Part shown: in pieces, positions 6,326-48,870 of the stretch
Layout: the number at the start of each line of letters is the position of its first letter
How positions within the stretch are numbered: the first letter of the stretch is position 1
DNA from: a virus
Lineage: Duplodnaviria; Heunggongvirae; Uroviricota; Caudoviricetes
Length of the DNA stretch: 50,042 nt
IMG/VR virus record: IMGVR_UViG_640753025_000001
Coordinates: 1-50,042 of that record
Strand: one strand, 5' to 3'
Made by a program: the position numbers and the translations under genes
Notes under the pieces: model-generated
The model's database searches: none
The model's input: the letters and a program-made list of their open reading frames with translations, nothing else
What the model was told of the DNA's origin: nothing

Positions 6326-6610
6326 GTGCCCATGAGCGGTAAGCGTTATCCCGAAGAGTTTAAAACTGAAGCAGTCAAACAGGTTGTTGATCGCGGTTAT
6401 TCTGTTGCCAGCGTTGCAACACGTCTCGATATCACCACCCACAGCCTTTATGCCTGGATAAAGAAGTACGGTCCGGATTCTTCCACTAATAAAGAACAGT
6501 CAGATGCTCAGGCCGAGATCCGCCGTCTCCAGAAAGAGCTGAAACGGGTTACCGACGAACGGGACATATTAAAAAAAGCCGCGGCGTACTTCGCAAAGCT
6601 GTCCGACTGA
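6326..6610 (+). CDS. IS3-family transposase OrfA (HTH)
   Basis: 94-aa ORF; A-run (TTAAAAAAAGCC) near 3' end consistent with a -1 frameshift site. Confidence 0.9.
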   Translation: MPMSGKRYPEEFKTEAVKQVVDRGYSVASVATRLDITTHSLYAWIKKYGPDSSTNKEQSDAQAEIRRLQKELKRVTDERDILKKAAAYFAKLSD

Positions 6611-6666
6611 GGTACGCCTTTATCCGTGACAACTCCTGTTGCTGGCCTGTTCGCCTGCTCTGTCGG

Positions 6667-7479
6667 GTGCTGGATGTTCATCCCAGTGGTTTTTACGCCT
6701 GGCTTCAGCAGCCGCATTCACAACGCCATCAGGCAGACCTGAGACTGACAGGACAGATTAAACAGTTCTGGCTGGAATCGGGATGCGTCTATGGTTATCG
6801 CAAAATCCATCTGGATTTGCGTGACAGCGGGCAACAGTGCGGAGTAAACAGAGTCTGGAGACTGATGAAACGTGTCGGAATAAAGGCTCAGGTCGGATAC
6901 CGAAGCCCGCGGGCACGTAAAGGCGAGGCCAGTATCGTGTCACCCAACAGGCTCCAGCGACAGTTCAATCCGGATGCTCCTGATGAGCGTTGGGTAACGG
7001 ACATAACCTACATCAGGACCCACGAAGGCTGGCTGTATCTTGCCGTTGTTGTTGATCTGTTCTCACGCAAAATTATCGGCTGGTCCATGCAATCCCGGAT
7101 GACAAAGGACATTGTCCTGAACGCACTGCTGATGGCTGTATGGCGGCGTAATCCCGAAAAACAGGTGCTGGTTCATTCGGATCAGGGCAGTCAGTACACA
7201 AGCCATGAGTGGCAGTCGTTCCTGAAATCACACGGCCTGGAGGGTAGCATGAGCCGTCGCGGTAACTGCCATGATAATGCGGTTGCAGAAAGTTTTTTCC
7301 AGTTGTTGAAACGTGAACGGATAAAGAAAAAGATCTACGGAACGCGGGAAGAAGCCCGCAGTGATATTTTTGATTACATCGAAATGTTTTATAACAGTAA
7401 GCGTCGGCATGGTTCTAGCGAACAGATGTCACCGACAGAATATGAAAACCAGTATTATCAACGGCTCGGAAGTGTCTAG
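6667..7479 (+). CDS. IS3-family transposase OrfB (DDE catalytic domain)
   Basis: 270-aa ORF from first Met; expected expression as OrfAB fusion by frameshift. Confidence 0.9.
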   Translation: MLDVHPSGFYAWLQQPHSQRHQADLRLTGQIKQFWLESGCVYGYRKIHLDLRDSGQQCGVNRVWRLMKRVGIKAQVGYRSPRARKGEASIVSPNRLQRQFNPDAPDERWVTDITYIRTHEGWLYLAVVVDLFSRKIIGWSMQSRMTKDIVLNALLMAVWRRNPEKQVLVHSDQGSQYTSHEWQSFLKSHGLEGSMSRRGNCHDNAVAESFFQLLKRERIKKKIYGTREEARSDIFDYIEMFYNSKRRHGSSEQMSPTEYENQYYQRLGSV

Positions 7480-11067: not shown

Positions 11068-11718
11068 TTAAGGAAGGTTTGCTAGCTTGGCATCAACGAC
11101 AACGCCAATGATTTTACAGTTCCCATTGATTTCAATCATTGGGTATTGTGGATTGAGTGGTTTCAGGAATTTTCTACCGGCATCAATAACTAACTTTTTG
11201 AATGTCGCCTCGTTTTCTCCTTCAAGTTTGGCGACTACCAGCTTTCCATTACGTGGTTCGACTTCTGGGTCGACGAGAATAATCATCCCCTCAGGAATAC
11301 TCAGTCCTGCCGGGGCAGTCATTGAATCGCCTTTAACGTCGAGCCAAAAAGAGTCTTCAGAACAATCTACCGTTGTGTCGTACCAGTTATCTATTGCACG
11401 CCTATGATATGGCTCTACAGCTTCCATCCAACATCCTGCGCTTACCCAACTAATTAGAGGATACGAACCTCTTGGATCATGCCTGCTGTGATAGGCAATG
11501 TTTGAAAGACTATCCTCTCCTTTCAACAGGTAATCAGGGGAGCACTGCAAAGCCTTGGCTAAGGCCAATAGGTTTTCGCCATTGGGCTCAGTTTCAGATC
11601 GCTCCCATTGGGAAATAGCAACATTAGACACGCCAACCATCTTGCCAAGGGCAGCCTGCCTAATCTTGAGTTCTTTTCTGCGAGCGCGAATACGCTCACC
11701 CATCAGTTGTGTATTCAT
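11068..11718 (-). CDS. c2: prophage repressor, P22 C2 / lambda CI type (HTH + S24 peptidase)
   Basis: 216-aa ORF; N-terminal HTH, C-terminal S24 domain with intact KGDSM Ser and FKKL Lys; recalled as near-identical to P22 C2. Confidence 0.88.
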   Translation of the reverse strand: MNTQLMGERIRARRKELKIRQAALGKMVGVSNVAISQWERSETEPNGENLLALAKALQCSPDYLLKGEDSLSNIAYHSRHDPRGSYPLISWVSAGCWMEAVEPYHRRAIDNWYDTTVDCSEDSFWLDVKGDSMTAPAGLSIPEGMIILVDPEVEPRNGKLVVAKLEGENEATFKKLVIDAGRKFLKPLNPQYPMIEINGNCKIIGVVVDAKLANLP

Positions 11719-35792: not shown

Positions 35793-36434
35793 TCAAAGCA
35801 ACGGGATTTCAAGGTAAACTGCGGTTGCCAAAATACTAACATCTTCATTTCTAACAAGAATATTAGGATACATTGGGTTTAGGGATACTAAGTTTGTCTC
35901 TATTTCACCAATGTAAACCTGCTTGAAGCTCAATATTTGCTCTTTATCCAATGATGCTATTACATAATCTTTGCTTTTAGCTTTTACTAGAGGGCTGAAC
36001 GTGACAACTGATCCTCTGGGAAAGCTAATACCTGAACTTGTAGTCATAGCTTCACCTTCAATAGTCAATGCAAATGCAGAGTCACCAACATTGTATATTG
36101 CCGGATGAAATCTAGACGATGAATGTTCACCTGTGTTTAGGTAATGCATAACTTCATCTAGTTTGAGGATTGGTATTTGCTTTACCAGAACGTCAGGCAT
36201 GACGTTTTTTGTTCCAGGCCCCTGACCTTCACCCAGAGCTAACCACTCAGCCGTAGTGCCTAATGCGTTGGCTAATGCCTGCAATACACGAAGCCGTGGT
36301 TTAGCCTCACCACCCTCGTATGCAGCTATTTGACGTTGAACAACACCAGCTAATTTTGACAACTGCGCCTGCGTCATACCCCTGGACTGTCTTGCCAGAG
36401 ATACTCTTGATGGGAATTGATCGTCAAAATTCAT
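35793..36434 (-). CDS. second CI-like repressor (HTH + S24-like domain, Ser to Ala at nucleophile)
   Basis: 213 aa; HTH GMTQAQLSKLAGV; C-terminal domain aligns to CI/C2 but has GEAM (Ala129, codon 36048..36050) where CI/C2 have GNSM/GDSM. Confidence 0.8.
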   Translation of the reverse strand: MNFDDQFPSRVSLARQSRGMTQAQLSKLAGVVQRQIAAYEGGEAKPRLRVLQALANALGTTAEWLALGEGQGPGTKNVMPDVLVKQIPILKLDEVMHYLNTGEHSSSRFHPAIYNVGDSAFALTIEGEAMTTSSGISFPRGSVVTFSPLVKAKSKDYVIASLDKEQILSFKQVYIGEIETNLVSLNPMYPNILVRNEDVSILATAVYLEIPLL

Positions 36435-36780: not shown

Positions 36781-37407
36781 ATGAATATTGTAGCAAAATC
36801 AGATTACAACTTCCACGGAGTTGAGTTGGTGCCCACCCGTGATATGCATGGTGTTTGGTTTACATCATCTAATATTGCATCTGCACTTAAATATGCAAAT
36901 AGCCGTGCAGTAACAATGATTTATAACAAGTATAGCGATGAGTTTAGCGCCGGAATGACTCAGGTACTCGAAGTGAGTACCTCAGGAAATTATCGCAAAA
37001 AAGTGCGAGTTTTCTCACTACGCGGTGCCCACCTAATCGCGATGTTTGCTCGCACTCCGGTAGCCAAAGAGTTCCGCCGCTGGGTGCTGGATATTTTGGA
37101 TCGGCAGGCAGAATGCTCACCGATTGCAAAACAGTTTACTGACGAAGAACTGGTTAATCTCTGCTACTTACAATTGTGGATGGAGAAGAGTCAACAAATG
37201 TGCAAACACATCTACCCAGGAATGAAGCAAATTGGTTCTGAGCTTTCAGGAAGAATTTACGATATTGCATATGAGACTCGCTATATGTCAGAAGAAACCA
37301 AGAAATCACTTCTTCGTGAAATGAAGAATCTTGATACCAACAATTTTGTCGTAAAGAACGCTCAGCCAATGCTGACAAAACTGCGCGGCGAGGAATGGAT
37401 TCATTGA
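36781..37407 (+). CDS. ant: antirepressor (Bro-N domain)
   Basis: ATG at 36781 after AAGGAA; N-terminal domain (HGVELVPTRDMHGVWFTS...) resembles phage antirepressor N-domain. Confidence 0.7.
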   Translation: MNIVAKSDYNFHGVELVPTRDMHGVWFTSSNIASALKYANSRAVTMIYNKYSDEFSAGMTQVLEVSTSGNYRKKVRVFSLRGAHLIAMFARTPVAKEFRRWVLDILDRQAECSPIAKQFTDEELVNLCYLQLWMEKSQQMCKHIYPGMKQIGSELSGRIYDIAYETRYMSEETKKSLLREMKNLDTNNFVVKNAQPMLTKLRGEEWIH

Positions 37408-38143: not shown

Positions 38144-38428
38144 GTGCCCATGAGCGGTAAGCGTTATCCCGAAGAGTTTAAAACTGAAGCAGTCAAACAG
38201 GTTGTTGATCGCGGTTATTCTGTTGCCAGCGTTGCAACACGTCTCGATATCACCACCCACAGCCTTTATGCCTGGATAAAGAAGTACGGTCCGGATTCTT
38301 CCACTAATAAAGAACAGTCAGATGCTCAGGCCGAGATCCGCCGTCTCCAGAAAGAGCTGAAACGGGTTACCGACGAACGGGACATATTAAAAAAAGCCGC
38401 GGCGTACTTCGCAAAGCTGTCCGACTGA
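38144..38428 (+). CDS. IS3-family transposase OrfA
   Basis: Identical protein to 6326..6610. Confidence 0.9.
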   Translation: MPMSGKRYPEEFKTEAVKQVVDRGYSVASVATRLDITTHSLYAWIKKYGPDSSTNKEQSDAQAEIRRLQKELKRVTDERDILKKAAAYFAKLSD

Positions 38429-38484
38429 GGTACGCCTTTATCCGTGACAACTCCTGTTGCTGGCCTGTTCGCCTGCTCTGTCGG

Positions 38485-39297
38485 GTGCTGGATGTTCATC
38501 CCAGTGGTTTTTACGCCTGGCTTCAGCAGCCGCATTCACAACGCCATCAGGCAGACCTGAGACTGACAGGACAGATTAAACAGTTCTGGCTGGAATCGGG
38601 ATGCGTCTATGGTTATCGCAAAATCCATCTGGATTTGCGTGACAGCGGGCAACAGTGCGGAGTAAACAGAGTCTGGAGACTGATGAAACGTGTCGGAATA
38701 AAGGCTCAGGTCGGATACCGAAGCCCGCGGGCACGTAAAGGCGAGGCCAGTATCGTGTCACCCAACAGGCTCCAGCGACAGTTCAATCCGGATGCTCCTG
38801 ATGAGCGTTGGGTAACGGACATAACCTACATCAGGACCCACGAAGGCTGGCTGTATCTTGCCGTTGTTGTTGATCTGTTCTCACGCAAAATTATCGGCTG
38901 GTCCATGCAATCCCGGATGACAAAGGACATTGTCCTGAACGCACTGCTGATGGCTGTATGGCGGCGTAATCCCGAAAAACAGGTGCTGGTTCATTCGGAT
39001 CAGGGCAGTCAGTACACAAGCCATGAGTGGCAGTCGTTCCTGAAATCACACGGCCTGGAGGGTAGCATGAGCCGTCGCGGTAACTGCCATGATAATGCGG
39101 TTGCAGAAAGTTTTTTCCAGTTGTTGAAACGTGAACGGATAAAGAAAAAGATCTACGGAACGCGGGAAGAAGCCCGCAGTGATATTTTTGATTACATCGA
39201 AATGTTTTATAACAGTAAGCGTCGGCATGGTTCTAGCGAACAGATGTCACCGACAGAATATGAAAACCAGTATTATCAACGGCTCGGAAGTGTCTAG
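38485..39297 (+). CDS. IS3-family transposase OrfB
   Basis: Identical protein to 6667..7479. Confidence 0.9.
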   Translation: MLDVHPSGFYAWLQQPHSQRHQADLRLTGQIKQFWLESGCVYGYRKIHLDLRDSGQQCGVNRVWRLMKRVGIKAQVGYRSPRARKGEASIVSPNRLQRQFNPDAPDERWVTDITYIRTHEGWLYLAVVVDLFSRKIIGWSMQSRMTKDIVLNALLMAVWRRNPEKQVLVHSDQGSQYTSHEWQSFLKSHGLEGSMSRRGNCHDNAVAESFFQLLKRERIKKKIYGTREEARSDIFDYIEMFYNSKRRHGSSEQMSPTEYENQYYQRLGSV

Positions 39298-39471: not shown

Positions 39472-39497
39472 AAACCCGCTTAATCGCGGGTTTTTTC
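39472..39497 (+). terminator. rho-independent terminator ending the arc-ant operon
   Basis: Hairpin AAACCCGC-TTAATC-GCGGGTTT followed by TTTTC. Confidence 0.65.
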
Positions 39498-39767
39498 TTT
39501 CCTTAGAATTTCAGCCGCAACTTCTTTTACTCGTTCCGAGATTAATGAGGCCAGCCTCTCTTCTTCATCACGATACCCGCTTACAGGTGATGGTTTGGAG
39601 AGTGATTCTTCCATCGTAGCCACAATTTCAGAATTGATAGACCTGTTATTCATTTTTGCACGCTGCTTAATCTTAGCGTGCAACTCGTGTGTAAGCCTCA
39701 AGTGGAACTGCGCCTCATCGTATTTGCTGTACATCATCAATGCCTCACCAAATGGGTGGAATGGCAT
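39480..39767 (-). CDS. mnt: Mnt-like ribbon-helix-helix repressor
   Basis: 95-aa ORF; LRLTHELHAKIKQRAKMNNRSINSEIVATMEESLSKPSPVSGYRDEEERLA matches the P22 Mnt pattern as recalled; true start may be an internal Met. Confidence 0.65.
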   Translation of the reverse strand: MPFHPFGEALMMYSKYDEAQFHLRLTHELHAKIKQRAKMNNRSINSEIVATMEESLSKPSPVSGYRDEEERLASLISERVKEVAAEILRKEKTRD

Positions 39768-39867: not shown

Positions 39868-41778
39868 ATGACTGACACCAATTACCTGATCTCTATGCCG
39901 TCTACACCTTTTTCGGCGCCACGAGCATTTAAATCAGTGGCGAACGGGAAAATCTATATCGGAAACCCTGACACTGACCCGGTAAATCCTGCTAACCAAA
40001 TTCCGGTATATGCCGTTAATGAGAATGGATCCGAGGTTCAGGTTTCTCAGCCAATCATCATTAACGCTGGAGGCTTCCCTGTTTATAACGGGCAGATTAT
40101 GAAGTTCATCACCAAACAGAACTTCAGCATGGCGGTGTATGATGCATATGGGGCGCAGCAGTTTTACTGGATTAATGTTGCAAATATGGACCCAAACTCT
40201 GCGTATCTGGAAGCGGTTAATGATGTTCTTGCAATGCTGGGCTCAAGCGATGGCGCAAAACTGATAGGTGGAATGAGCTTTCTTACAGCGGAAATGTACT
40301 CTCATCTTGTTGAAGGGATGGACTGGAGGAAAGCAATTCAAGCTGCTATAGACCAAGCTCACCAGAACTATTTAGCCGGAAGCGGCCCAACCAATATTCT
40401 CATTGGAGGTGAATTCTCCGTTACTCTCAATCCTAATTCAACTTTGATACCTGGTGAGGTTGCTGCGGGTCGAGGTGCGCTGTGTATGCGTAGTGGTGTA
40501 ACACTGATGGGCGGCGGAGCAATCACGCTTGATGGCAATTTTACTGGCTCAGCCAGCGGCGCAATCATTACAAACTGGGAAGGCGCCGCCGATAACTGCA
40601 AGATTCAGGGGATCACGCTTAACGGCAGCCGTGGCACCGCTGCCGGAACGGGGATTACCTGCATTAATATCTTGGACTCGGATAATGTCACTATTGATAA
40701 CGTTAAGGCGATAGATAGCACTTCTGGAGGGATTTATTTACGCCGAGCTAACAATACGGTTTATGGCTGTTCTAACTCAAGAATTATGAACTGCTACGTT
40801 CACAACGTTGAATATATTGGCATTCAGTGTGAACGCCCCAACGGGATGACCATTACGGGATGTGCCGTAGCCTCCTGCGGTGATAATGGCATTGATATCT
40901 TTGGTAACGTAACTGACGAATCTGGACAGGGAGTTGCGGAGGATGTTGTTGTTAGTAATAACACTATCCGTGATGTAAGCGTAGGAGTGTTCATCGAATC
41001 ATGCGGAAACGTGGCAATATCTTCGTGCCGTATTTCAGGATTTAGTAACTCTGGTGTTTTCTTTAACCGGATAAATACAGCTGCGTATAATTGTTCTGTA
41101 ATTGGATGCACGATAACAGGGGCGGATATTACCTCCAGCCAGGGCATCCGCTGGAAGAATGCAGTTGGTTACACTCGCGTTTATAACAACACACTAAAAA
41201 ACTGTATTGACTCCTTTGTGACAACTGGAGGGATGATTTACGTTGATATTGGGGTGAATAACCATGAAAGCATTGGCAGGTGTTTTCTTTACGTTCCCAA
41301 AAAATCTAACGGATGTGTCTATACAAGAATGGTTCAGCAGGTCTACAACGGAGTTCAGACAGATGGCATACCGTACAACACGACACCTCGTGGTTGGCCA
41401 TCCGCAAACAACACTAGGTACTATCGCTGTTCATTCACCGCGCCGTACATGATGTATTCCGCTACGACTGGGGAAGATAACCTCATTCGGGCTACAGGCA
41501 ATTTGCCATTCAACAGTGGCTGGGGGCCTGCTTACTCGCTATACAATACGATTGTTTCTGGAGAAACAGTAATAGCCATGGGGAGCTCGCTACTGTCTGC
41601 CGGTGAATACATGCTAATAAACGGTTATTATTATTTAGTTTATAGCGTCACATCATCCTATGCTGTAGTAAGGAAATGGGATGTATCCAGTCAGGACTAT
41701 ATTGCCGGAGACTACACATCTTATTTAAATAGCGCATACGCATATTCCATCTTCAGAGCTGCTTGGGGAACACTATGA
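39868..41778 (+). CDS. tailspike protein (P22-type head-binding domain + divergent receptor-binding domain)
   Basis: 636 aa; N-terminal ~110 aa (FKSVANGKIYIGNPDTDPVNPANQIPVY) collinear with P22 gp9; remainder Gly/Asn/Ser/Thr-rich with repeated short strands. Confidence 0.88.
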   Translation: MTDTNYLISMPSTPFSAPRAFKSVANGKIYIGNPDTDPVNPANQIPVYAVNENGSEVQVSQPIIINAGGFPVYNGQIMKFITKQNFSMAVYDAYGAQQFYWINVANMDPNSAYLEAVNDVLAMLGSSDGAKLIGGMSFLTAEMYSHLVEGMDWRKAIQAAIDQAHQNYLAGSGPTNILIGGEFSVTLNPNSTLIPGEVAAGRGALCMRSGVTLMGGGAITLDGNFTGSASGAIITNWEGAADNCKIQGITLNGSRGTAAGTGITCINILDSDNVTIDNVKAIDSTSGGIYLRRANNTVYGCSNSRIMNCYVHNVEYIGIQCERPNGMTITGCAVASCGDNGIDIFGNVTDESGQGVAEDVVVSNNTIRDVSVGVFIESCGNVAISSCRISGFSNSGVFFNRINTAAYNCSVIGCTITGADITSSQGIRWKNAVGYTRVYNNTLKNCIDSFVTTGGMIYVDIGVNNHESIGRCFLYVPKKSNGCVYTRMVQQVYNGVQTDGIPYNTTPRGWPSANNTRYYRCSFTAPYMMYSATTGEDNLIRATGNLPFNSGWGPAYSLYNTIVSGETVIAMGSSLLSAGEYMLINGYYYLVYSVTSSYAVVRKWDVSSQDYIAGDYTSYLNSAYAYSIFRAAWGTL

Positions 41779-42026
41779 CTTACATGAAAGGTGATTACAT
41801 ATCGACGAACTCTCGCTATGGCGAATCGAAGGTAGGATGTTTTGCCTACATAGATGACACCGTGAAAGATGGAGATCTTTATATCAGTGCTATCGGAATT
41901 TATGATGGAGAGGGCAAGGAAAATAAAATATTCGATTTCAACGTAGTAACTCTCAGTGGAGAACCTGATGATGTGTTTTCTTTGGCTAAAGAAACATACC
42001 TGAGCAATTTCTCAATAATTGATTAA
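41775..42026 (+). CDS. small hypothetical protein translationally coupled to tailspike
   Basis: ATG at 41775 overlaps tailspike TGA (ATGA); 83 aa. Confidence 0.45.
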   Translation: MTYMKGDYISTNSRYGESKVGCFAYIDDTVKDGDLYISAIGIYDGEGKENKIFDFNVVTLSGEPDDVFSLAKETYLSNFSIID

Positions 42027-42207
42027 TAATCACCACTAGGCTTTGATGGCAGAGCATTTAAACCAATGAACCTTCCAGTGCCGTAGCCAATACTTCAACA
42101 GATGGAATTCATTGGCTGAACGCCAACAAAGTCATATGATTCAGTAACATTTCCGGTTACTACCATTGATAGTCGCAACATCTATTGATCTTCCCTTACA
42201 GTAAAAC

Positions 42208-42227
42208 TACTGTATATAAAAACAGTA
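42208..42227 (+). promoter_or_regulatory. LexA (SOS) box
   Basis: TACTGTATATAAAAACAGTA fits CTGT-N8-ACAG; 18 bp upstream of ATG 42246. Confidence 0.7.
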
Positions 42228-42245
42228 ATCATCAGAGGGAAGATC

Positions 42246-42485
42246 ATGCACCGTCAGTCAGACATCTATCAGGCTTTCCGCGAGTCGGTATTGCGCAACT
42301 CCAAAGGCTACCAGTATCTGCATACAAAGGATTTTGTGTCAGCGCTGCTCCGGCGTGGGCTGCACTTTACCGACTCAGAGGCTAATGCGTGGATATCTAG
42401 AGAGCAGACGTACTTTGTCGACAAAACCACCGACCATAGCGAAAACCGTTTGTGGATGATGGCTAACATGGGGAGGGTTTTGTAA
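42246..42485 (+). CDS. hypothetical protein, first gene of LexA-box operon
   Basis: 79-aa ORF after AGAGGGAAG; stop overlaps next start (TAATG). Confidence 0.55.
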   Translation: MHRQSDIYQAFRESVLRNSKGYQYLHTKDFVSALLRRGLHFTDSEANAWISREQTYFVDKTTDHSENRLWMMANMGRVL

Positions 42486-42802
42486 TGGGCTTTCCTTCAC
42501 CCGCAGCGGACTACGTCGAGCAGCGACTGTCCGTTAACTCGATATGCAATGTTGGTCCTAACACCCGCGTTTTCGAAAGGGATGGCGGTTATGTTGTGCT
42601 GGATATCTCCCTGAAGCCAAAGCAGGGTAGTCAGGTTCTGATCCAGCACGGCGGCGGGACTGAGCTTGCCACGTTGAGAGGGAGGGCCCTGATTACTGAA
42701 GACGGCGAAGCGATTGAAGGCGAGGCCCTGGATGATATCACTGTCGCCGGCGTGGTGACACACACCATCATCGATGTGAGAAGTGACAGCGTAGCGGTAT
42801 AA
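42485..42802 (+). CDS. UmuD'-like protein (S24 fold, no Ser/Lys dyad, starts at the UmuD' N-terminus)
   Basis: 105 aa starting MGFPSPAADYVEQR, the segment just after the UmuD Cys-Gly cleavage site; GDSM Ser and catalytic Lys positions not conserved. Confidence 0.6.
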   Translation: MGFPSPAADYVEQRLSVNSICNVGPNTRVFERDGGYVVLDISLKPKQGSQVLIQHGGGTELATLRGRALITEDGEAIEGEALDDITVAGVVTHTIIDVRSDSVAV

Positions 42803-42833
42803 GGCAGGCTTTTTAGTGGCCTGCCGCTTTTGA

Positions 42834-43064
42834 TTACTGTGTCTTTTCGTCCAGCCAGTCCGCCCACCACTGCATCATTTCTCTGCGTTTATCGAGATAC
42901 TGAGCATGGTTGTATATTCCACGCACAGATCCGCCGTTGGCATGAGCGAGTTGCACTTCGATAGTTTCGTGATGCACCAAGTGATCAAAGTAATGAAATT
43001 TAACATCCAAGCCTCCATCGATCGATACTTGCGGTAGTTGATAAGGAAAAACTATGGTACACAA
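42834..43064 (-). pseudogene. C-terminal fragment of a P4-type tyrosine integrase
   Basis: EVQLAHANGGSVRGIYNHAQYLDKRREMMQWWADWLD aligns with the C-terminus of the intact integrase at 43465..44673; no N-terminal/catalytic part. Confidence 0.6.
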
Positions 43065-43255: not shown

Positions 43256-43304
43256 ATTCGTAATGCGAAGGTCGTAGGTTCGACTCCTATTATCGGCACC
43301 ATTT
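43256..43304. repeat. attR core: 49-bp direct repeat (displaced 3' part of thrW)
   Basis: Exact copy of 1399..1447. Confidence 0.8.
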
Positions 43305-43464: not shown

Positions 43465-44673
43465 ATGAAACTTAATGCGCGACAGGTAGACGCAGCTAAA
43501 CCCAGAGAGAAAGCCTATAAGCTGGCAGATGGTGCTGGTTTGTATCTTGAGGTTGTTCCCTCTGGTTCCAGATACTGGCGGATGAAATATCGCTTCAATG
43601 GAAAAGAGAAGCGTATGGCCTTTGGTGTCTATCCGGCAGTGTCCCTTGCACAAGCGAGGGCACTGCGTGACGACGCCAAGAAAAAGCTTGCCGAAGGTAT
43701 CGATCCATCGCTTGCCAAGAAAGAAGAAAAGCTGGTTCGAGATGTGCAGCTAAATAATACGTTTCAGGCTGTGGCACTTGAATGGCATGGAACGAAGGTG
43801 AGCCGATGGTCAGAAGGTTATGCCTCGGACATTATCGAAGCCTTTAATAAAGATATTTTTCCCTATATTGGCCAACAACCGGTGAATGAAATCAAACCGC
43901 TGGTTCTGCTTAATGTGCTGCGTCGAATTGAAAGCCGTGGCGCGACAGAGAAGGCCAAGAAGGTTCGCCAGCGTTGCAGCGAAGTCTTTCGTTACGCCAT
44001 CGTAACCGGTCGTGCGGAATACAATCCTGCAGCGGATCTTACCAGCGCGATGTCAGGGCATGAATCGAAGCATTATCCCTTCCTTACTGTTGAGGAGTTA
44101 CCAGACTTTTTTAAAGCTCTCGCAGGCTACACAGGAAGCCCGTTAGTTGTTCTTGCGGCACGTCTGCTGATCCTCACGGGAGTTCGCACTGGCGAACTCC
44201 GAGGTGCTTTCTGGAGTGAGTTTGATCTTGAAAAAGCGGTGTGGGAGATACCTGCCGAGCGTATGAAGATGAAACGGCCTCACCTTGTCCCCCTCTCTAC
44301 CCAAGCGCTGGAAATCGTACAGCAACTCAAAGTGATGTCAGGGCAATATCCACTGGTGTTCCCGGGACGTAATGATCCCCGCAAGACGATGAGTGAAGCG
44401 AGTATTAATCAGGTTTTTAAGCGGATTGGATATACGGGGAGGGTAACGGGGCATGGTTTCCGTCACACGATGAGTACGATTTTGCATGAGGAAGGTTTCA
44501 ATACAGCGTGGATTGAAACCCAGCTGGCTCACGTTGATAAAAATGCGATTCGTGGGACGTATAACCATGCGTTGTATTTGGAAGGACGTAGGGAGATGAT
44601 GCAGTGGTATGCGGACTATATAAACGCTAATCATAATTCATGTATTTCTTTGCTGGTGAACGCTACAAAGTAG
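43465..44673 (+). CDS. int: tyrosine integrase, P4 type
   Basis: ATG at 43465 after GGGAGA; catalytic HGFRHT and RGTYNHALY regions; begins 160 bp after the tRNA 3' repeat, reading away from it. Confidence 0.9.
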   Translation: MKLNARQVDAAKPREKAYKLADGAGLYLEVVPSGSRYWRMKYRFNGKEKRMAFGVYPAVSLAQARALRDDAKKKLAEGIDPSLAKKEEKLVRDVQLNNTFQAVALEWHGTKVSRWSEGYASDIIEAFNKDIFPYIGQQPVNEIKPLVLLNVLRRIESRGATEKAKKVRQRCSEVFRYAIVTGRAEYNPAADLTSAMSGHESKHYPFLTVEELPDFFKALAGYTGSPLVVLAARLLILTGVRTGELRGAFWSEFDLEKAVWEIPAERMKMKRPHLVPLSTQALEIVQQLKVMSGQYPLVFPGRNDPRKTMSEASINQVFKRIGYTGRVTGHGFRHTMSTILHEEGFNTAWIETQLAHVDKNAIRGTYNHALYLEGRREMMQWYADYINANHNSCISLLVNATK

Positions 44674-44914
44674 ATTTGACGTGATGATAGGATTGATTAG
44701 GAAAATGACCTAAAACCGTATATTTTGATACTTAAGTTTAAACATTAGCCCTATATCCGATCGCCCTTTGTTACCTACACTTCTATCTTTTTTAGGTTCT
44801 AGGGCTGAAAGATTTGAAGATAAGTTTATAAATATCAATAGATTACATGATTGTGTTGGTTCTTGGGTAGCCGTAACGCCTAGGGCGGTAGCGTACTTAA
44901 GATGAGTATAAAAA

Positions 44915-46123
44915 ATGAACAGTAACTATATGCCATTCACACAACGAGATAGTCTCGGAAGATACTATACAAAAGAATCCATAAGTGCATTATTGGTTTC
45001 TCAGATGAAAGCTGAAAAAGTCAATAATATTATTGATTTAGCTTCTGGTGAGGGGAGCTTAACCTATGCTGCTTTAGACCGATGGAAGAATGCAGAAGCA
45101 TATTCTTTGGATATAGAATCTCGGATGTCAAAAAAAGTATGTGATAATCTTACTCATATTGTAACAGATGCCCTTGTTCATTCATTTCCTGAAATGCTTG
45201 CCCGACATCAAGGAAATTTTGATGTTGCAGTATGTAATCCTCCATTCACTCTCCCTGAATGGAGGGATGATTATTTTAAAATCATTAGTGAGATTGGCGC
45301 AGATAAATATATATCTGTCTCAAAATATGTCCCAGCAGAGATAATATTTATATCTCAAGTCATCAGGTTTCTTAAAAAGGGCGGTGAGGCTGGAATAATT
45401 TTACCTGATGGTATATTTACAGCAAGAAAGTTTATAGGTTTAAGACGATATTTATTGAATGAACATTCAATTACAAAAGTCATTGAATTGCCTAGGAATA
45501 TCTTCAAAAGGACAGAGGCTAAAACACATATTTTAATTTTTAATAAAAAAATTATGCCTCATCATAAAATACAATTACATTGTATAACTAAAGATGGGGA
45601 ATTGTCGCCTCCTGTTTTAATTAGAAAAGAAGATGCGGTTGAGAGAATGGACTACTCTTATCATTATAATAAAAATGAAGGTAAAGGGTTTAGCACAATA
45701 GGGATGCTTAAAAATATTTCAATTTTTAGAGGTAGGTTTAATTCAAAGGAAATTACGGAACATGTTTTTCATACGACAAAATTTAGTGGTGATGAAAAGT
45801 ACATTAAATTCCACTGCAACTCTGTAGAAGAATTGAAGCCATCAAAATTAGATGTCATTGCTAAGCCTGGTGATATATTAATAGCAAGAGTTGGGCGAAA
45901 TTTTCATAAAAAAATATTGTTTGTTGAGAGCGGCTATTCTTATATCAGTGACTGTATTTTTCTGATACGAGCCTCTGGTGGAGATAAGAAAAAACTATTT
46001 GATTTTCTTTGTTCTCAAGATGGGCAAGAGGAATTATCTCGAGCGAGTAGTGGTGTAGCCGCACAACATATTACAATGGATGCATTAAAAAAAATACATC
46101 TTGTAAGGATTAAACATGACTGA
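44915..46123 (+). CDS. N6-adenine DNA methyltransferase, gamma class
   Basis: 402 aa; GRYYTKESI (motif X-like), IIDLASGEGSLT (AdoMet motif I), CNPPF (motif IV, 45236..45247); ~160-aa C-terminal putative recognition domain; AT-rich. Confidence 0.8.
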   Translation: MNSNYMPFTQRDSLGRYYTKESISALLVSQMKAEKVNNIIDLASGEGSLTYAALDRWKNAEAYSLDIESRMSKKVCDNLTHIVTDALVHSFPEMLARHQGNFDVAVCNPPFTLPEWRDDYFKIISEIGADKYISVSKYVPAEIIFISQVIRFLKKGGEAGIILPDGIFTARKFIGLRRYLLNEHSITKVIELPRNIFKRTEAKTHILIFNKKIMPHHKIQLHCITKDGELSPPVLIRKEDAVERMDYSYHYNKNEGKGFSTIGMLKNISIFRGRFNSKEITEHVFHTTKFSGDEKYIKFHCNSVEELKPSKLDVIAKPGDILIARVGRNFHKKILFVESGYSYISDCIFLIRASGGDKKKLFDFLCSQDGQEELSRASSGVAAQHITMDALKKIHLVRIKHD

Positions 46124-47822
46124 TGTGGAATTAGATAGTAATTTTCTTATCGAGGAACGAGCTGATTATATTGATGAGGATACGATAAAAAATAATACTA
46201 TCAGATCTGGAGAGTTTTTCGATATTATACATAATGCTCTTATATCCCCAGGCATCAAACTTATAGTTGGTCCTAGGGGATGTGGTAAAACACATTTGAT
46301 GCGTTATGCTTGGGTTGAATGTAAAAACGATGATAACGCACCATTACCACTCTATGTTTCTTTTAATAAATATTTTAAGTTAGAGCCGCTTTTAAAAAAT
46401 AAACCAAATGCAATTGATCTCTTTCATAAATGGGTATTAGCAAAGATACTACTCTCTGCTTATGAAATTGCTTGCGATATTGAAGATTCTGAATATCTTG
46501 ATTTGTCAACGATACTCATAGCGGATAAAGAGTTCCTAATTAATTTAATCGTAAGGCTTGAGCAGGGTCTTTCGCCATCATTAGAACAAGAAAACATTGT
46601 TCAATTGATCAGTGTTTCTTCTGTCATATCCTCGTTGAGTTCACTATGTGATTGGCTTGAACGTAAAAGAGTCATTATTTTATTAGACGATGCAGCAATA
46701 AGCTTAACTCCTGAATATCTTTACGAGTTTTTTGATATTGTACGTAGTCTAAAAACCTCAAAAATAGCTTTAAAGGCATCGGTTTATCCTGGAACAACCG
46801 AATATGGCCCAAGGTTTCATGTTGCTCATGATGCTGAAACAATTGATGCTTGGATTTCGGTACAGCACCCTAATTATTCCTCAGTGATGGATGCTATAGC
46901 GCAGGCAAGGTTTCCTGGGTATGATGGCATTCCGGATGACTTGAAAGAGTTATTTAAATTCTCAGCATTTGGTATTCCACGTTCTTTTTTGATGATGTTA
47001 AGAGATTATCAAACAACTTTAAGTCAGACAACTCAGCAAAAATTTAATAAAATAATTGAAAGGTATGTTGAGCTTAGACTCAGCGAATACAGTTCACTAA
47101 AAGATAAGCTACCTCGATTGTTTGACATTGTTTCATTAGGTGAATCACTTTTATTAAAAGTAGTCGAATTACTCAAGGAAAGTAACTCCCAATATAAAGA
47201 AGAGAAACAAGTCATAATCGGTATAGAGAAAAATGATAATGTTTATTTTTCTCGACTCACTAAGCTATTAATTGAAACAGGGCTTTTTTATAATCTTCCT
47301 GATATTTCTCATGGTGATGGGCGTACTTATGAAAGATATATACCTCATTATGCTTTATTAATAAAGGAAAGAGTGTTTAACGAAGGAAGTAGAGGTTTTT
47401 CTCCTTCTCAGATTATTCAAAAAATACTAAGAAAGAATGCTAAGCATCCTGTCAGAAGAAACATTTCATCATTATTCAATGCTGAGCAACTTGCGAGACT
47501 TAAACTAACTTTACCTCCATGCAATAACTGCAAGACTCCGCGATTGACTGACAATCAAAAATTTTGCCATCATTGTGGGAATCAATTGATTGATGAGTCG
47601 GCCTATAATCAGTGCATGTCTATTCCACTGTCAAAAGTACCACATCTAACATCTTGGCAAATGCAAAAACTATCTGGGCTGGAAAAAGTAAAAACTATAG
47701 GAGATGTATTGTCTTTACAAGACCCTGGGAGTGAGTTAAGAAAAATTCACAGAATAGGACCCAAAATTGCCAATAAAATTATGGACAAAGTGTTATTACA
47801 TGTTGAAGAGTTTTTGTCTTAA
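46116..47822 (+). CDS. P-loop ATPase with C-terminal zinc ribbon and helix-hairpin-helix
   Basis: 568 aa; Walker A GPRGCGKTH (46269..46295), Walker B-like VIILLDDA, CNNCKTP...CHHCGNQL (from ~47519), HhH IHRIGPKIANKI; start overlaps MTase stop. Confidence 0.7.
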   Translation: MTDVELDSNFLIEERADYIDEDTIKNNTIRSGEFFDIIHNALISPGIKLIVGPRGCGKTHLMRYAWVECKNDDNAPLPLYVSFNKYFKLEPLLKNKPNAIDLFHKWVLAKILLSAYEIACDIEDSEYLDLSTILIADKEFLINLIVRLEQGLSPSLEQENIVQLISVSSVISSLSSLCDWLERKRVIILLDDAAISLTPEYLYEFFDIVRSLKTSKIALKASVYPGTTEYGPRFHVAHDAETIDAWISVQHPNYSSVMDAIAQARFPGYDGIPDDLKELFKFSAFGIPRSFLMMLRDYQTTLSQTTQQKFNKIIERYVELRLSEYSSLKDKLPRLFDIVSLGESLLLKVVELLKESNSQYKEEKQVIIGIEKNDNVYFSRLTKLLIETGLFYNLPDISHGDGRTYERYIPHYALLIKERVFNEGSRGFSPSQIIQKILRKNAKHPVRRNISSLFNAEQLARLKLTLPPCNNCKTPRLTDNQKFCHHCGNQLIDESAYNQCMSIPLSKVPHLTSWQMQKLSGLEKVKTIGDVLSLQDPGSELRKIHRIGPKIANKIMDKVLLHVEEFLS

Positions 47823-47892
47823 TTTTGATGGCATGTACTTGTCAATCGTGTCTTTCTTATCTGAAAAGTTTAATTTAAAAAGAGTCGGGAAA

Positions 47893-48870
47893 ATGGAACT
47901 AGAATCAAAAGAGGATTATGAAGAGACCACTCATCATAATGTGGCGTCCTCAGTTGTCACTGCAACCCATGATAACTTAGATGGAAGAGAGTTTTTTGAA
48001 CTATGTAGTAATCCAGCTCTAGTTTTTTCGTTTGAGACACACAAAAAATTTAATGAGTTACCTGTTGATAGCAAGGAATCCCCGTTAGATCTTTTTATAG
48101 CTAATACAAAGCAACTTCACTTGTTAAGATCTGGTGATATTTCAAACACATTAAGCCATCTGTTGTTATTAGGTTATGTGTCTGCAGCCGAAAGTTATTT
48201 GCGAGCTCTTATCAGAAATCTAATTAATCATGATGAATATATACAGTCTATAGTTTCTGATAAGGCCGTTAGTTATGCAGCGGCACAACACCATAAAAAG
48301 GAGTTATTACCAGAAGCTTTACTTGAGGACTTTTCATTGGCAAGCCCTTATAATGTTTTTGAAACATTAAAGGACATTATTGGAATGAAAGGACAACGAC
48401 CAATCGAAATGATGAAATGCTCAAGCGAATTCATGAAAGTTTGCGAGTTAAGGCATTGTTGTGTTCATCGATTTGGTAAGTTGGGTTCGAAAAATGCAAT
48501 CCGACTAGGATTGGCTGAACATATGAAGCACTTAGAAAAACCGATAATACTCAATAATGATGATCTCGAGCAAATCGCATTTATTGTTGAGAATTTTATT
48601 AGAACTTTGAATAATACCGTTTTCAAATTTATAATTAATCGTACAGTTGAGAACAAAAATAAGGAAAAAGGAGGGGAAAGACTATATGATTCTGAATGGA
48701 CATGGGTGTTTGAAAAAGATATAAGTCGATACGAAAAGTATTATTCAATATTTAGTGCCAAAAACGATACCCTTCCCGGATTATCATTACAGGATTCATA
48801 TCAACTTTTTGTTAATGCATATAAGCCTAAACTTCCTGCAAGAAAAAATAAAAAAACTGAAGAAAATTAA
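47893..48870 (+). CDS. hypothetical protein with Rx4H (HEPN-like) motif
   Basis: 325 aa from ATG 47893; RHCCVH at 48451..48468; AT-rich; alternative in-frame starts at 47767 and 47833. Confidence 0.5.
   Translation: MELESKEDYEETTHHNVASSVVTATHDNLDGREFFELCSNPALVFSFETHKKFNELPVDSKESPLDLFIANTKQLHLLRSGDISNTLSHLLLLGYVSAAESYLRALIRNLINHDEYIQSIVSDKAVSYAAAQHHKKELLPEALLEDFSLASPYNVFETLKDIIGMKGQRPIEMMKCSSEFMKVCELRHCCVHRFGKLGSKNAIRLGLAEHMKHLEKPIILNNDDLEQIAFIVENFIRTLNNTVFKFIINRTVENKNKEKGGERLYDSEWTWVFEKDISRYEKYYSIFSAKNDTLPGLSLQDSYQLFVNAYKPKLPARKNKKTEEN

What the first reader, a model, noticed from the sequence alone, without database searches (positions are those of the whole stretch)
42208..42802. LexA-box-controlled two-gene cassette encoding a UmuD'-like protein that begins at the processed N-terminus
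A near-consensus SOS box TACTGTATATAAAAACAGTA lies 18 bp upstream of a 79-aa ORF that is translationally coupled (TAATG) to a 105-aa ORF. The second protein starts MGFPSPAADYVEQR, the sequence immediately after the Cys-Gly autocleavage site of UmuD, and lacks the Ser and Lys of the S24 dyad. It is therefore a ready-made UmuD'-like protein made on DNA damage without needing RecA-mediated cleavage. It could feed or titrate the host translesion polymerase, or act as a decoy. The first gene has no recognisable family.
Basis: partly seen in the sequence, partly recalled or inferred. Interest (0 to 1): 0.72.

Follow-up and report, generated by a model that had tools for sequence, protein, structure and literature searches.

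The report
SOS-controlled prophage UmuD′-like gene pair
A prophage in E. coli HS carries a DNA-damage-inducible two-gene unit encoding a small winged-helix protein and a shortened, catalytically dead, ready-processed relative of the mutagenesis protein UmuD′; it is an uncharacterised variant of the known phage P1 HumD type and is common in Klebsiella and E. coli prophages.

Summary
ORF B is homologous to UmuD′ over the whole domain, not only the arm (hhalign 97.9%, E 3e-13; the predicted structure matches UmuD′ best). Its closest characterised relative is phage P1 HumD, a LexA-controlled, pre-processed UmuD′ that P1's record says complements UmuD′. So the central idea is already known. What differs:
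- B is a short form (about 105 aa) with a 12-residue deletion that removes the Ser60 loop. It scores below the NCBIfam HumD cut-off and gets no Pfam S24 hit.
- It is almost always preceded by a conserved 79-aa protein (phrog_3893) with a confident winged-helix model and no assignable family.
- Its promoter-operator aligns with the host umuDC promoter and carries the identical 20-bp SOS box.

The pair sits between the tailspike gene and attR of a P22-like prophage. It recurs in prophages of at least 10 enterobacterial genera, under purifying selection, often beside a DinI-like gene. The most likely function is an SOS-induced UmuD′ surrogate or modulator acting on host UmuC/RecA*. Whether it activates or inhibits, and what ORF A does, remain untested. 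Verdict: a new variant of a known kind, of moderate interest.

The parts
42165..42172 (+). Conserved upstream block ATTGATAG (AT..ATAG invariant), function unknown
   Evidence: Invariant in the alignment of 9 cassette promoters and the E. coli HS umuDC promoter.
42185..42190 (+). Probable -35 hexamer TTGATC
   Evidence: TTGATC is invariant in the 10-sequence promoter alignment, which includes host umuDC, and is present in nearly all loci, 17 bp before TACTGT. Assignment as the -35 is inferred.
42208..42213 (+). Probable -10 hexamer TACTGT, inside the left half of the LexA box
   Evidence: Same layout as upstream of the host umuDC operon, TTGATC-N17-TACTGT. Inferred; no transcription start has been mapped.
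42208..42227 (.). LexA (SOS) box TACTGTATATAAAAACAGTA
   Evidence: Unique in the window. Identical to the 20-mer upstream of E. coli HS umuD. Conserved in all homologous loci compared.
42235..42239 (+). Shine-Dalgarno GAGGG for ORF A
   Evidence: Read from the sequence.
42246..42485 (+). ORF A, 79 aa, winged-helix-fold protein of unknown function (phrog_3893), pI 9.2
   Evidence: PHROG E 9e-39. 847 database relatives to the family profile. AlphaFold2 pLDDT 89.8 with α1-β-α2-α3-β-β order. Only generic winged-helix fold matches. dN/dS 0.16.
42470..42477 (+). Shine-Dalgarno GGGGAGGG for ORF B, embedded in the last codons of ORF A (…NMGRV)
   Evidence: Read from the sequence. The matching C-terminal residues of A are conserved across loci.
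42485..42802 (+). ORF B, 105 aa, short-form pre-processed UmuD′/HumD-like protein lacking Ser60 and Lys97 (phrog_3469), pI 4.55
   Evidence: PHROG E 1e-45. NCBIfam HumD E 4e-12 but below its cut-off. hhalign against UmuD 97.9%. PDB profile hits are UmuD/UmuD′ only. Model pLDDT 81.6 with UmuD′ as the best fold match, TM about 0.6. dN/dS 0.21.
42803..42835 (+). Intrinsic terminator-like hairpin (8-bp stem, 6 GC pairs) followed by a T-rich tract, closing the two-gene unit
   Evidence: Terminator scan.

Best explanation
This is a self-contained, LexA-repressed cargo operon of a P22-like prophage (att repeats at 1399-1447 and 43256-43304).

In undamaged cells LexA sits on a umuDC-type operator that overlaps the -10 and keeps the unit silent. 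After DNA damage, RecA*-driven LexA cleavage derepresses it. Two proteins are then made by coupled translation (one-base stop/start overlap, with the ribosome-binding site for B inside the end of A).

B is a dimer-type UmuD′ look-alike of the phage HumD lineage. It is born without the 24-residue propeptide, so it needs no RecA-mediated processing. Having no use for self-cleavage, it has lost the Ser60 loop and Lys97. It keeps the flexible N-terminal arm (GFPSPAxDYxE) and the β-core.

The most likely action is on the host Pol V pathway. B would engage UmuC and/or the RecA* filament as a ready-made UmuD′ surrogate. That would bypass the slow UmuD-to-UmuD′ checkpoint, so lesion bypass is available to the induced prophage and its host early in SOS.

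A is a small winged-helix partner that travels with both long and short B forms. I infer that it acts in the same pathway as an adaptor or regulator.

Shown: the anatomy, the homology, the fold, the conserved operator, purifying selection, and the presence of host umuDC. Inferred: LexA control in vivo, binding to UmuC/RecA*, whether the effect is activating or inhibiting, and any A-B contact.
For: - Operator and promoter: identical box and colinear promoter with host umuDC. The box is conserved in all 27 A-containing loci aligned and at P1 humD. The umu operator is among the most tightly LexA-repressed (PMC5342242).
- Homology of B to UmuD′ over residues 25-137: BLASTP E 2e-11, hhalign 97.9% and E 3e-13, PDB profile hits to UmuD/UmuD′ only, including arm-less 1ay9, and fold matches led by 1i4v/1ay9/1umu.
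- Link to HumD: tblastn 36% identity over residues 1-100 and NCBIfam HumD E 4e-12. The P1 record states that HumD functionally complements UmuD′ and has a LexA site.
- The arm is the most constrained part: 79% mean identity against 44% for the rest, and dN/dS 0.125 with saturated synonymous sites. Arm residues F26 and P29 contact RecA in the UmuD-RecA* structure, and arm variants alter RecA-related phenotypes (PMC9926225, PMC5342242).
- The host has intact umuDC, and no umuC-like gene lies next to the cassette in any locus.
- A graded series exists from UmuD (Ser and Lys), through P1 HumD (Ser and Lys, no propeptide) and HK140/L017 (Thr and Lys), to the short form with the loop deleted. This fits relaxed selection on catalysis once the protein is pre-cleaved.
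- The pair is conserved with the same one-base overlap in at least 10 genera.
Against: - B has lost 12, about 5 and about 4 residues relative to UmuD′/HumD. It scores 46 bits against the 120-bit HumD cut-off and gets no Pfam S24 hit. Retention of UmuC binding and dimerisation is therefore unproven.
- The family has its own conserved motif, ITxDGEAIEG, which is absent from UmuD and HumD. This hints at a changed function.
- Only part of the UmuD surface that contacts RecA* is kept. The F94 column is Phe in most members but Thr (BLASTP) or Leu (MAFFT) in this copy. Y52, residue 54 and D91 are not conserved (PMC9926225).
- P1 HumD works without any ORF A, so the HumD precedent does not explain the obligatory partner.
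- Fold-search E-values are modest (3.7e-3 to 3e-2).
- No expression or phenotype data were found.
Confidence: 0.45

Rival explanations
1. B is a dominant-negative or decoy rather than an activator. It would form inactive heterodimers with host UmuD/UmuD′, or occupy UmuC or the RecA* groove. That would dampen Pol V mutagenesis or retune RecA* co-protease activity (the timing of LexA, UmuD and repressor cleavage) during prophage induction, possibly together with the neighbouring DinI-like protein.
For: - The catalytic loop is deleted and the core has diverged, while the arm that touches RecA in the UmuD-RecA* structure is kept (PMC9926225).
- A DinI-family gene (Pfam E 1e-22), a known RecA* binder, is transcribed divergently from the same short SOS-box region in at least 9 loci.
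- UmuD and UmuD′ exchange subunits readily, and heterodimers redirect UmuD′ to ClpXP (PMC5342242).
- The family-specific ITxDGEAIEG motif suggests a new function.
Against: - The closest characterised relative, HumD, is an activator according to the P1 annotation.
- A simple decoy would not obviously need the conserved partner A.
- The RecA*-contact residues outside the arm are only partly conserved.
Confidence: 0.25
2. A and B together form a two-polypeptide, non-cleavable LexA-like or UmuDAb-like DNA-binding regulator, with A as the winged-helix DNA-binding subunit and B as the S24-type dimerisation subunit. Made late in SOS, it would re-repress or retarget particular promoters.
For: - A has a confident winged-helix model whose element order parallels the LexA N-terminal domain.
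- The A|B gene boundary falls exactly where LexA-type proteins are cleaved, since B starts at the post-cleavage Gly.
- Coupled translation and opposite charges (pI 9.2 and 4.55) are compatible with a complex.
- An extra conserved promoter block, ATTGATAG, has no assigned function.
- Acinetobacter UmuDAb, with its small partner DdrR, shows that UmuD-like proteins can become repressors (abstract of PMC11332147, listed).
Against: - There is no sequence relationship between A and the LexA N-terminal domain (hhalign probability 0.08).
- Fold matches for A are weak and generic (E 0.1-0.5).
- A is only mildly basic, and the exposed face of its third helix varies between homologues.
- A and B do not co-diverge: r = 0.28, and A genes 97% identical sit before B genes only 26% identical.
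- The few apparent A-B fusions are frameshift products.
Confidence: 0.1
3. The unit is a LexA-controlled antirepressor module that triggers prophage induction, in the manner of 186 Tum or the Gifsy antirepressors.
For: - LexA-controlled small genes far from the immunity region are the hallmark of such systems (as summarised in PMC9879122).
- S24-type domains mediate repressor dimerisation, so a truncated one could in principle poison a CI-type repressor.
Against: - This prophage's C2 repressor is a complete self-cleaving type: HTH plus Peptidase_S24 (E 1e-30) with the Ala-Gly site, the GDSM serine and the FKKL lysine. No antirepressor is needed.
- The prophage already carries an immI Ant/Arc region.
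- The same cassette occurs in unrelated phage types, P22-like and λ-like, which argues for a host target.
- The B profile hits only UmuD in the PDB, not CI or LexA.
Confidence: 0.05

Closest known systems
Bacteriophage P1 HumD (and N15 gp26 / phiKO2 gp23), NCBIfam NF051876
   Same: - Phage-encoded UmuD′ homologue that begins at the post-cleavage Gly (MGFPSPAADYVE…).
- A LexA box lies just upstream.
- There is no cognate umuC.
- 36% identity over residues 1-100.
   Different: - HumD is 129 aa, keeps the Ser and Lys columns, and has no upstream ORF A; it is paired divergently with lxr.
- The window protein is 105 aa, lacks the Ser loop and the Lys, carries the ITxDGEAIEG motif, and scores 46 bits against the 120-bit family cut-off.
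E. coli UmuD/UmuD′ (Pol V accessory subunit; PDB 1UMU, 1AY9, 1I4V, 8GMT)
   Same: - Identical 13-residue arm.
- Homologous β-core (hhalign 97.9%; fold TM about 0.6).
- Identical SOS box and colinear promoter.
- One-base overlap with the neighbouring gene, as in umuD-umuC.
   Different: - No propeptide and no cleavage site.
- No Ser60 or Lys97; a 12-residue deletion plus two smaller ones.
- The partner gene is a 79-aa winged-helix protein placed upstream, not UmuC downstream.
Long-form HumD-like gene of phage HK140 (HK140_027/028) and the Enterobacter hormaechei locus L017
   Same: Same operon design: SOS box, 79-aa ORF A homologue, one-base overlap, UmuD′-like gene, next to a DinI-like gene and attP.
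   Different: B there is 129 aa with the loop retained (Thr in place of Ser, Lys kept). It represents the intermediate between HumD and the short form.
impCAB-type plasmid operons (small DinI-like ImpC + UmuD-like ImpA + UmuC-like ImpB)
   Same: A small accessory gene accompanies a UmuD-like gene on a mobile element under SOS control. This comparison rests on my own knowledge; the reference is listed in PMC11541004.
   Different: - ORF A is not DinI-like (no Pfam DinI hit).
- The DinI-like gene in these phages is a separate, divergently transcribed gene.
- There is no impB/umuC, and ImpA is cleavable.
Acinetobacter UmuDAb + DdrR
   Same: A UmuD-family protein works with a small partner protein encoded next to it (abstract of PMC11332147, listed). 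That DdrR is about 80 aa is from my own knowledge.
   Different: - UmuDAb is a full-length, cleavable repressor with its own N-terminal DNA-binding region, and the genes are divergent.
- No homology between DdrR and ORF A could be tested here.

Membership tests
HumD-type pre-processed UmuD′ proteins of temperate phages | Protein starts at the residue equivalent to UmuD Gly25 (no propeptide, no cleavage site) | tested here: met
   M-GFPSPAADYVEQR equals UmuD 25-37 and aligns from position 1 of P1 HumD and of the NCBIfam HumD model.
HumD-type pre-processed UmuD′ proteins of temperate phages | Homology to UmuD′ across the globular domain | tested here: met
   hhalign 97.9% and E 3e-13 over UmuD 25-137. 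HMM profile against the PDB: UmuD E 6.5e-10, and arm-less 1ay9 E 1.2e-3. Best fold matches are UmuD′.
HumD-type pre-processed UmuD′ proteins of temperate phages | Reaches the curated NCBIfam HumD (NF051876) equivalog cut-off | tested here: not met
   46.3 bits against a cut-off of 120. It is a divergent short-form sister group (PHROG 3469) rather than an equivalog.
HumD-type pre-processed UmuD′ proteins of temperate phages | LexA box upstream, and no cognate umuC in the element | tested here: met
   Box at 42208-42227. The P1 LexA site is annotated. No umuC-like ORF occurs in any flank.
HumD-type pre-processed UmuD′ proteins of temperate phages | Complements UmuD′ in mutagenesis; binds UmuC and RecA filaments; forms dimers | not testable with these tools
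   Needs genetics and biochemistry. No multimer prediction tool was available.
Peptidase S24 (LexA/UmuD/CI self-cleaving proteins) | Ser nucleophile and Lys general base | tested here: not met
   The Ser60 loop is deleted and the Lys97 column is Ala in this copy and in the family consensus.
Peptidase S24 (LexA/UmuD/CI self-cleaving proteins) | Ala/Cys-Gly cleavage site preceded by an N-terminal segment | tested here: not met
   The protein begins at the Gly.
Peptidase S24 (LexA/UmuD/CI self-cleaving proteins) | Matches Pfam PF00717 at the gathering threshold | tested here: not met
   No Pfam hit at E ≤ 1. The prophage's own C2 repressor scores E 1e-30.
Peptidase S24 (LexA/UmuD/CI self-cleaving proteins) | S24-type β-fold | tested here: met
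   AlphaFold2 model with pLDDT 81.6. Eleven of the top 12 Foldseek PDB hits are UmuD′, UmuD, LexA C-domain or λ CI structures, TM 0.37-0.63. E-values are modest.
E. coli LexA (SOS) regulon | 20-bp operator matching TACTG(TA)5CAGTA and placed over the promoter | tested here: met
   18 of 20 matches to the consensus. Identical to the umuDC operator of the same strain, with the same TTGATC-17-TACTGT layout.
E. coli LexA (SOS) regulon | LexA binding and damage-inducible transcription | not testable with these tools
   No expression data were found.
LexA-like repressor (winged-helix DNA-binding domain + S24 domain), here as two polypeptides | ORF A is homologous to the LexA N-terminal DNA-binding domain | tested here: not met
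   hhalign probability 0.08. No Pfam LexA_DNA_bind hit in any of 27 members.
Winged-helix fold (ORF A) | α1-β1-α2-α3-β2-β3 topology with structural matches to winged-helix domains | tested here: inconclusive
   The model is confident (pLDDT 89.8) and the topology fits. All PDB and viral matches are weak (E 0.02-0.5, TM 0.45-0.6) and generic.
LexA-controlled phage antirepressors (186 Tum, Gifsy type) | The resident repressor is non-cleavable and depends on an antirepressor | tested here: not met
   The C2 repressor has HTH plus a complete S24 domain with the Ala-Gly site, Ser and Lys.
DinI/ImpC family (for ORF A) | Matches Pfam DinI (PF06183) | tested here: not met
   No hit for A. The neighbouring HK140 gene scores E 1e-22.

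The most novel reading that the evidence does not exclude
A and B might form a new two-subunit SOS effector. In this reading the winged-helix protein A uses the catalytically dead UmuD′-like dimer B as a scaffold. The complex would either be a RecA-insensitive LexA-like regulator or a RecA*/Pol V modulator that, together with the adjacent phage DinI, lets prophages reset the timing and mutagenic output of the host SOS response. Because the cassette is carried by thousands of Klebsiella and E. coli isolates, it could influence stress-induced mutagenesis and the evolution of antibiotic resistance.
Probability: 0.15. Interest if true: 0.75.

Novelty: new variant of a known kind. Interest (0 to 1): 0.45.

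Why it matters
Pol V activity is normally held back by slow RecA-dependent processing of UmuD. Mobile elements that deliver a ready-made, or a dominant-negative, UmuD′ under SOS control could raise or lower damage-induced mutagenesis in their hosts.

This short form and its partner are widespread. They occur in 153 of 5,426 complete E. coli genomes and in very large Klebsiella protein clusters. Databases label B inconsistently as 'hypothetical', 'S24/S26 peptidase', 'UV protection protein' or 'DNA polymerase V subunit UmuD', and I found no experimental study.

Establishing whether it promotes or restrains translesion synthesis, and what the winged-helix partner does, would clarify how prophages manipulate the SOS response in clinically important Enterobacteriaceae.

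Tried and rejected
1. The Gifsy-1 STM14_3218-3220 paper (PMC9879122) concerns unrelated genes.
2. The 'split LexA' idea failed on sequence. hhalign of ORF A against LexA gave probability 0.08, and Pfam on 27 ORF A members gave only noise, with WVELL and DUF7669 at E ≥ 0.003.
3. The ORF A profile against PDB sequences found nothing meaningful. ORF A gave nothing in NCBIfam and only a noise-level hit in PADLOC (E 0.035); ORF B gave nothing in PADLOC.
4. Apparent A-B fusion proteins and N-terminally extended B proteins from the representative search are frameshift products, gene-call artefacts or a UmuD-arm chimera. None is a genuine fusion.
5. Gene conversion with host umuD does not explain the invariant arm, because its synonymous sites are saturated.
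6. The antirepressor role is disfavoured because the resident repressor is self-cleaving.
8. The HumD paper itself (PMC94175) is not held. Its content is cited only through the P1 GenBank annotation and reference lists.
9. The generic promoter scan did not call the cassette promoter. It was inferred from conservation and from the umuDC alignment instead.
Full report
**1. What is in the sequence.**
The window is from the E. coli HS chromosome, with a 100% match over the cassette region queried (window 42150-42830) to NZ_CP185286. It holds a P22-like prophage inserted at tRNA-Thr next to proA. The 49-bp att repeats lie at 1399-1447 and 43256-43304.

The finding lies between the tailspike gene (39868-41778) and attR, a variable cargo position in this prophage and in the related phages examined.
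- The 20-mer TACTGTATATAAAAACAGTA lies at 42208-42227 and is the only CTGT-N8-ACAG in 50 kb.
- It ends 18 nt before the ATG of a 79-aa ORF (42246-42485).
- That ORF's TAA overlaps the ATG of a 105-aa ORF (42485-42802) as TAATG.
- A GC-rich hairpin with a T tract follows directly (42803-42825).
- Ribosome-binding sites precede both genes. The one for B (GGGGAGGG, 42470-42477) lies inside the last codons of A.

**2. The second protein (B).**
Residues 2-14 are identical to E. coli UmuD 25-37, the first residues of UmuD′. The similarity is not confined to this arm:
- BLASTP against the host's own UmuD gives 30% identity over the whole of UmuD′ (E 2e-11).
- A profile of 35 diverse family members aligns to UmuD 25-137 with 97.9% probability (E 3e-13).
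- The same profile finds only UmuD/UmuD′ among all PDB sequences (E 6.5e-10). It still finds 1ay9, which lacks the arm (E 1.2e-3).
- An AlphaFold2 model has mean pLDDT 81.6, with the core at 83-93 and the arm low, as expected for a flexible arm. Its best structural matches are UmuD′ (1i4v, 1ay9, 1umu; TM about 0.6), followed by LexA and λ CI C-terminal domains. Foldseek E-values are only 4e-3 to 3e-2.

All alignments place a 12-residue gap over UmuD S57-D68, which removes Ser60. They put Ala or another non-Lys residue at the Lys97 column. B gets no Pfam Peptidase_S24 hit at all, whereas the prophage's C2 repressor scores E 1e-30. B is therefore a shortened, catalytically dead, pre-processed UmuD′ homologue.

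**3. It belongs to a known kind.**
B matches PHROG 3469 ('UmuD-like protein') end to end (E 1e-45). It also matches the NCBIfam HumD model over its full length, but at 46 bits against a cut-off of 120. tblastn against phage genomes shows a graded series:
- Klebsiella λ-like phages at 80-90% identity.
- mEp390, phiES15 and Erwinia phages at 40-55%.
- P1 HumD at 36% over residues 1-100.

The P1 record annotates humD as functionally complementing UmuD′ and marks a LexA site 20 nt upstream. The primary paper (McLenigan et al. 1999) is listed in PMC11541004 but could not be read here. A phage-borne, LexA-controlled, ready-made UmuD′ without its own umuC has thus been known since 1999.

HumD keeps the Ser and Lys columns. 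The 129-aa HK140/L017 form has Thr and Lys. The roughly 105-aa form has lost the loop. This is what relaxed selection on self-cleavage would produce once the propeptide is gone.

The short form is a small family, with 207 relatives among 1.84 billion cluster representatives. It is essentially absent from plasmids, where the hits are ordinary umuD/HumD genes at 30-36% identity.

**4. The first protein (A).**
A is not an orphan. It matches PHROG 3893 (E 9e-39), and a profile of 25 A sequences finds 847 database relatives, all about 79 aa. No Pfam, NCBIfam, PADLOC or PDB-sequence relationship was found.

Its AlphaFold2 model is confident (pLDDT 89.8) and has the winged-helix order α1-β-α2-α3-β-β. 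Foldseek returns almost only winged-helix domains (ORC WH, Fur, STIV F93, TubR, Z-binding domain), but weakly (E 0.02-0.5). So the fold is winged-helix and no family can be assigned.

A precedes B with the same one-base overlap in:
- Klebsiella phages, phiES15 and HK140.
- mEp390, where it is intact but unannotated.
- Erwinia phages.
- At least 18 of 24 chromosomal loci from Klebsiella, Raoultella, Leclercia, Kosakonia, Silvania, Enterobacter, Superficieibacter, Lelliottia and Huaxiibacter. Most of the rest are decayed copies.

A accompanies both long and short B forms. A and B identities correlate only weakly (r = 0.28), and A genes 97% identical sit in front of B genes only 26% identical. 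B types are therefore exchanged behind the same A, probably by recombination in the conserved arm.

Both genes are under purifying selection, with dN/dS 0.16 for A and 0.21 for B. The arm is the most constrained part (0.125) despite saturated synonymous sites, so its conservation acts on the protein and is not due to recent gene conversion with umuD.

**5. Regulation.**
A CTG-N10-CAG box occurs 18-28 nt upstream of A in all 27 A-containing loci compared. mEp390 has one too.

E. coli HS has an intact umuDC operon. Its operator is the identical 20-mer, and its promoter has the same layout: TTGATC, 17 bp, then TACTGT, which forms the left half of the box. Nine cassette promoters align colinearly with the umuDC promoter over about 75 bp, including a further invariant AT..ATAG block of unknown function.

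The cassette therefore carries a umuDC-type promoter-operator, a class described as among the most tightly LexA-repressed (PMC5342242). ORF A occupies the position of the 24-codon UmuD propeptide. LexA control is a strong inference, not a measurement.

**6. Neighbourhood.**
In at least 9 loci a DinI-family gene (Pfam E 1e-22) is transcribed divergently from the same short intergenic region. Tail-fibre genes lie upstream and integrase or att downstream. No umuC-like gene is adjacent in any locus.

**7. Mechanism.**
Best supported (about 0.45): an SOS-induced UmuD′ surrogate of the HumD lineage that acts with host UmuC/RecA* without waiting for RecA-mediated UmuD processing.

The arm, which is the one element kept almost unchanged, is free of the core in UmuD′. 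It contains F26 and P29, which contact RecA in the UmuD-RecA* structure, and variants within it alter RecA-related phenotypes (PMC9926225, PMC5342242).

Several points count against a simple HumD-like role:
- The deletions in the core.
- The family-specific ITxDGEAIEG motif.
- Incomplete retention of the other RecA*-contact residues.
- The unexplained obligatory partner A.

Rivals:
- A dominant-negative or RecA* modulator (about 0.25). The DinI neighbour and the loss of core features favour this.
- A two-polypeptide LexA-like regulator (about 0.1). The winged-helix fold and the gene boundary at the cleavage position are suggestive. The absence of homology to LexA and the lack of co-divergence argue against it.
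- An antirepressor (about 0.05). This is disfavoured because the C2 repressor is a complete self-cleaving S24 protein and the cassette occurs in unrelated phage types.

**8. Novelty and verdict.**
New here are the short, dyad-less form, its conserved winged-helix partner, and the umuDC-type promoter. No literature on them was found. I rate it a new variant of a known kind, interest 0.45.

Noticed in passing
window 35793-36434 (-), with 36781-37407 (+) and 39480-39767 (-): The prophage's immI-like region (P22AR-type antirepressor, Arc) contains a second HTH + Peptidase_S24 protein (213 aa; Pfam S24 E 1e-12), besides the C2 repressor at 11068-11718. It could be a RecA-cleavable regulator of the antirepressor region rather than a Mnt-type one.
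   Followed up: partly
window 6332-7479 and 38150-39297: Two copies of the same IS3-family transposase (same protein accession) interrupt a Gp157-family gene and a gene in the immI region, so the prophage is probably defective.
   Followed up: no
window 42834-43064 (-) and 43256-43304: A remnant of the 3′ end of an HK620/Sf6-type integrase gene (93% DNA identity) lies between the cassette and the 49-bp attR repeat, although the prophage's own integrase is at the other end (1459-2613). This looks like a scar of an earlier or recombined element.
   Followed up: partly
window 43465-48870: Directly after attR comes a second integrase, followed by an HsdM-family methyltransferase, a 568-aa zinc-ribbon protein and a further ORF. 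This looks like a second island, possibly a defence island, inserted in tandem at the same tRNA-Thr site.
   Followed up: no
window 41775-42026 (+): An 83-aa ORF overlaps the tailspike stop codon and has no Pfam or PHROG match. It sits between the tailspike gene and the cassette.
   Followed up: partly
L005 (phage mEp390, JQ182729) 2262-2501: An intact 79-aa ORF A homologue is not annotated in the GenBank record, which instead annotates a 129-nt ORF on the opposite strand (mEp390_025).
   Followed up: yes
protein P0283 (141 aa, representative search): This is a chimera: a UmuD-type N-terminal propeptide with the Cys-Gly cleavage site is fused to a short-form (Ser-loop-deleted) core. It could not cleave itself, and it suggests recombination between umuD and the phage gene within the conserved arm.
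   Followed up: partly
window 42165-42172; L032 36765-36772: An ATTGATAG block (AT..ATAG invariant) about 13 bp upstream of the -35 is shared by the cassette promoters and the host umuDC promoter. Its function is unknown.
   Followed up: partly
L007 1910-2176, and L013, L014, L015, L018, L019, L022, L025, L027: A DinI-family gene is transcribed divergently from the A-B pair, apparently sharing the single SOS box, in many λ-like prophages. It is absent from the window.
   Followed up: partly
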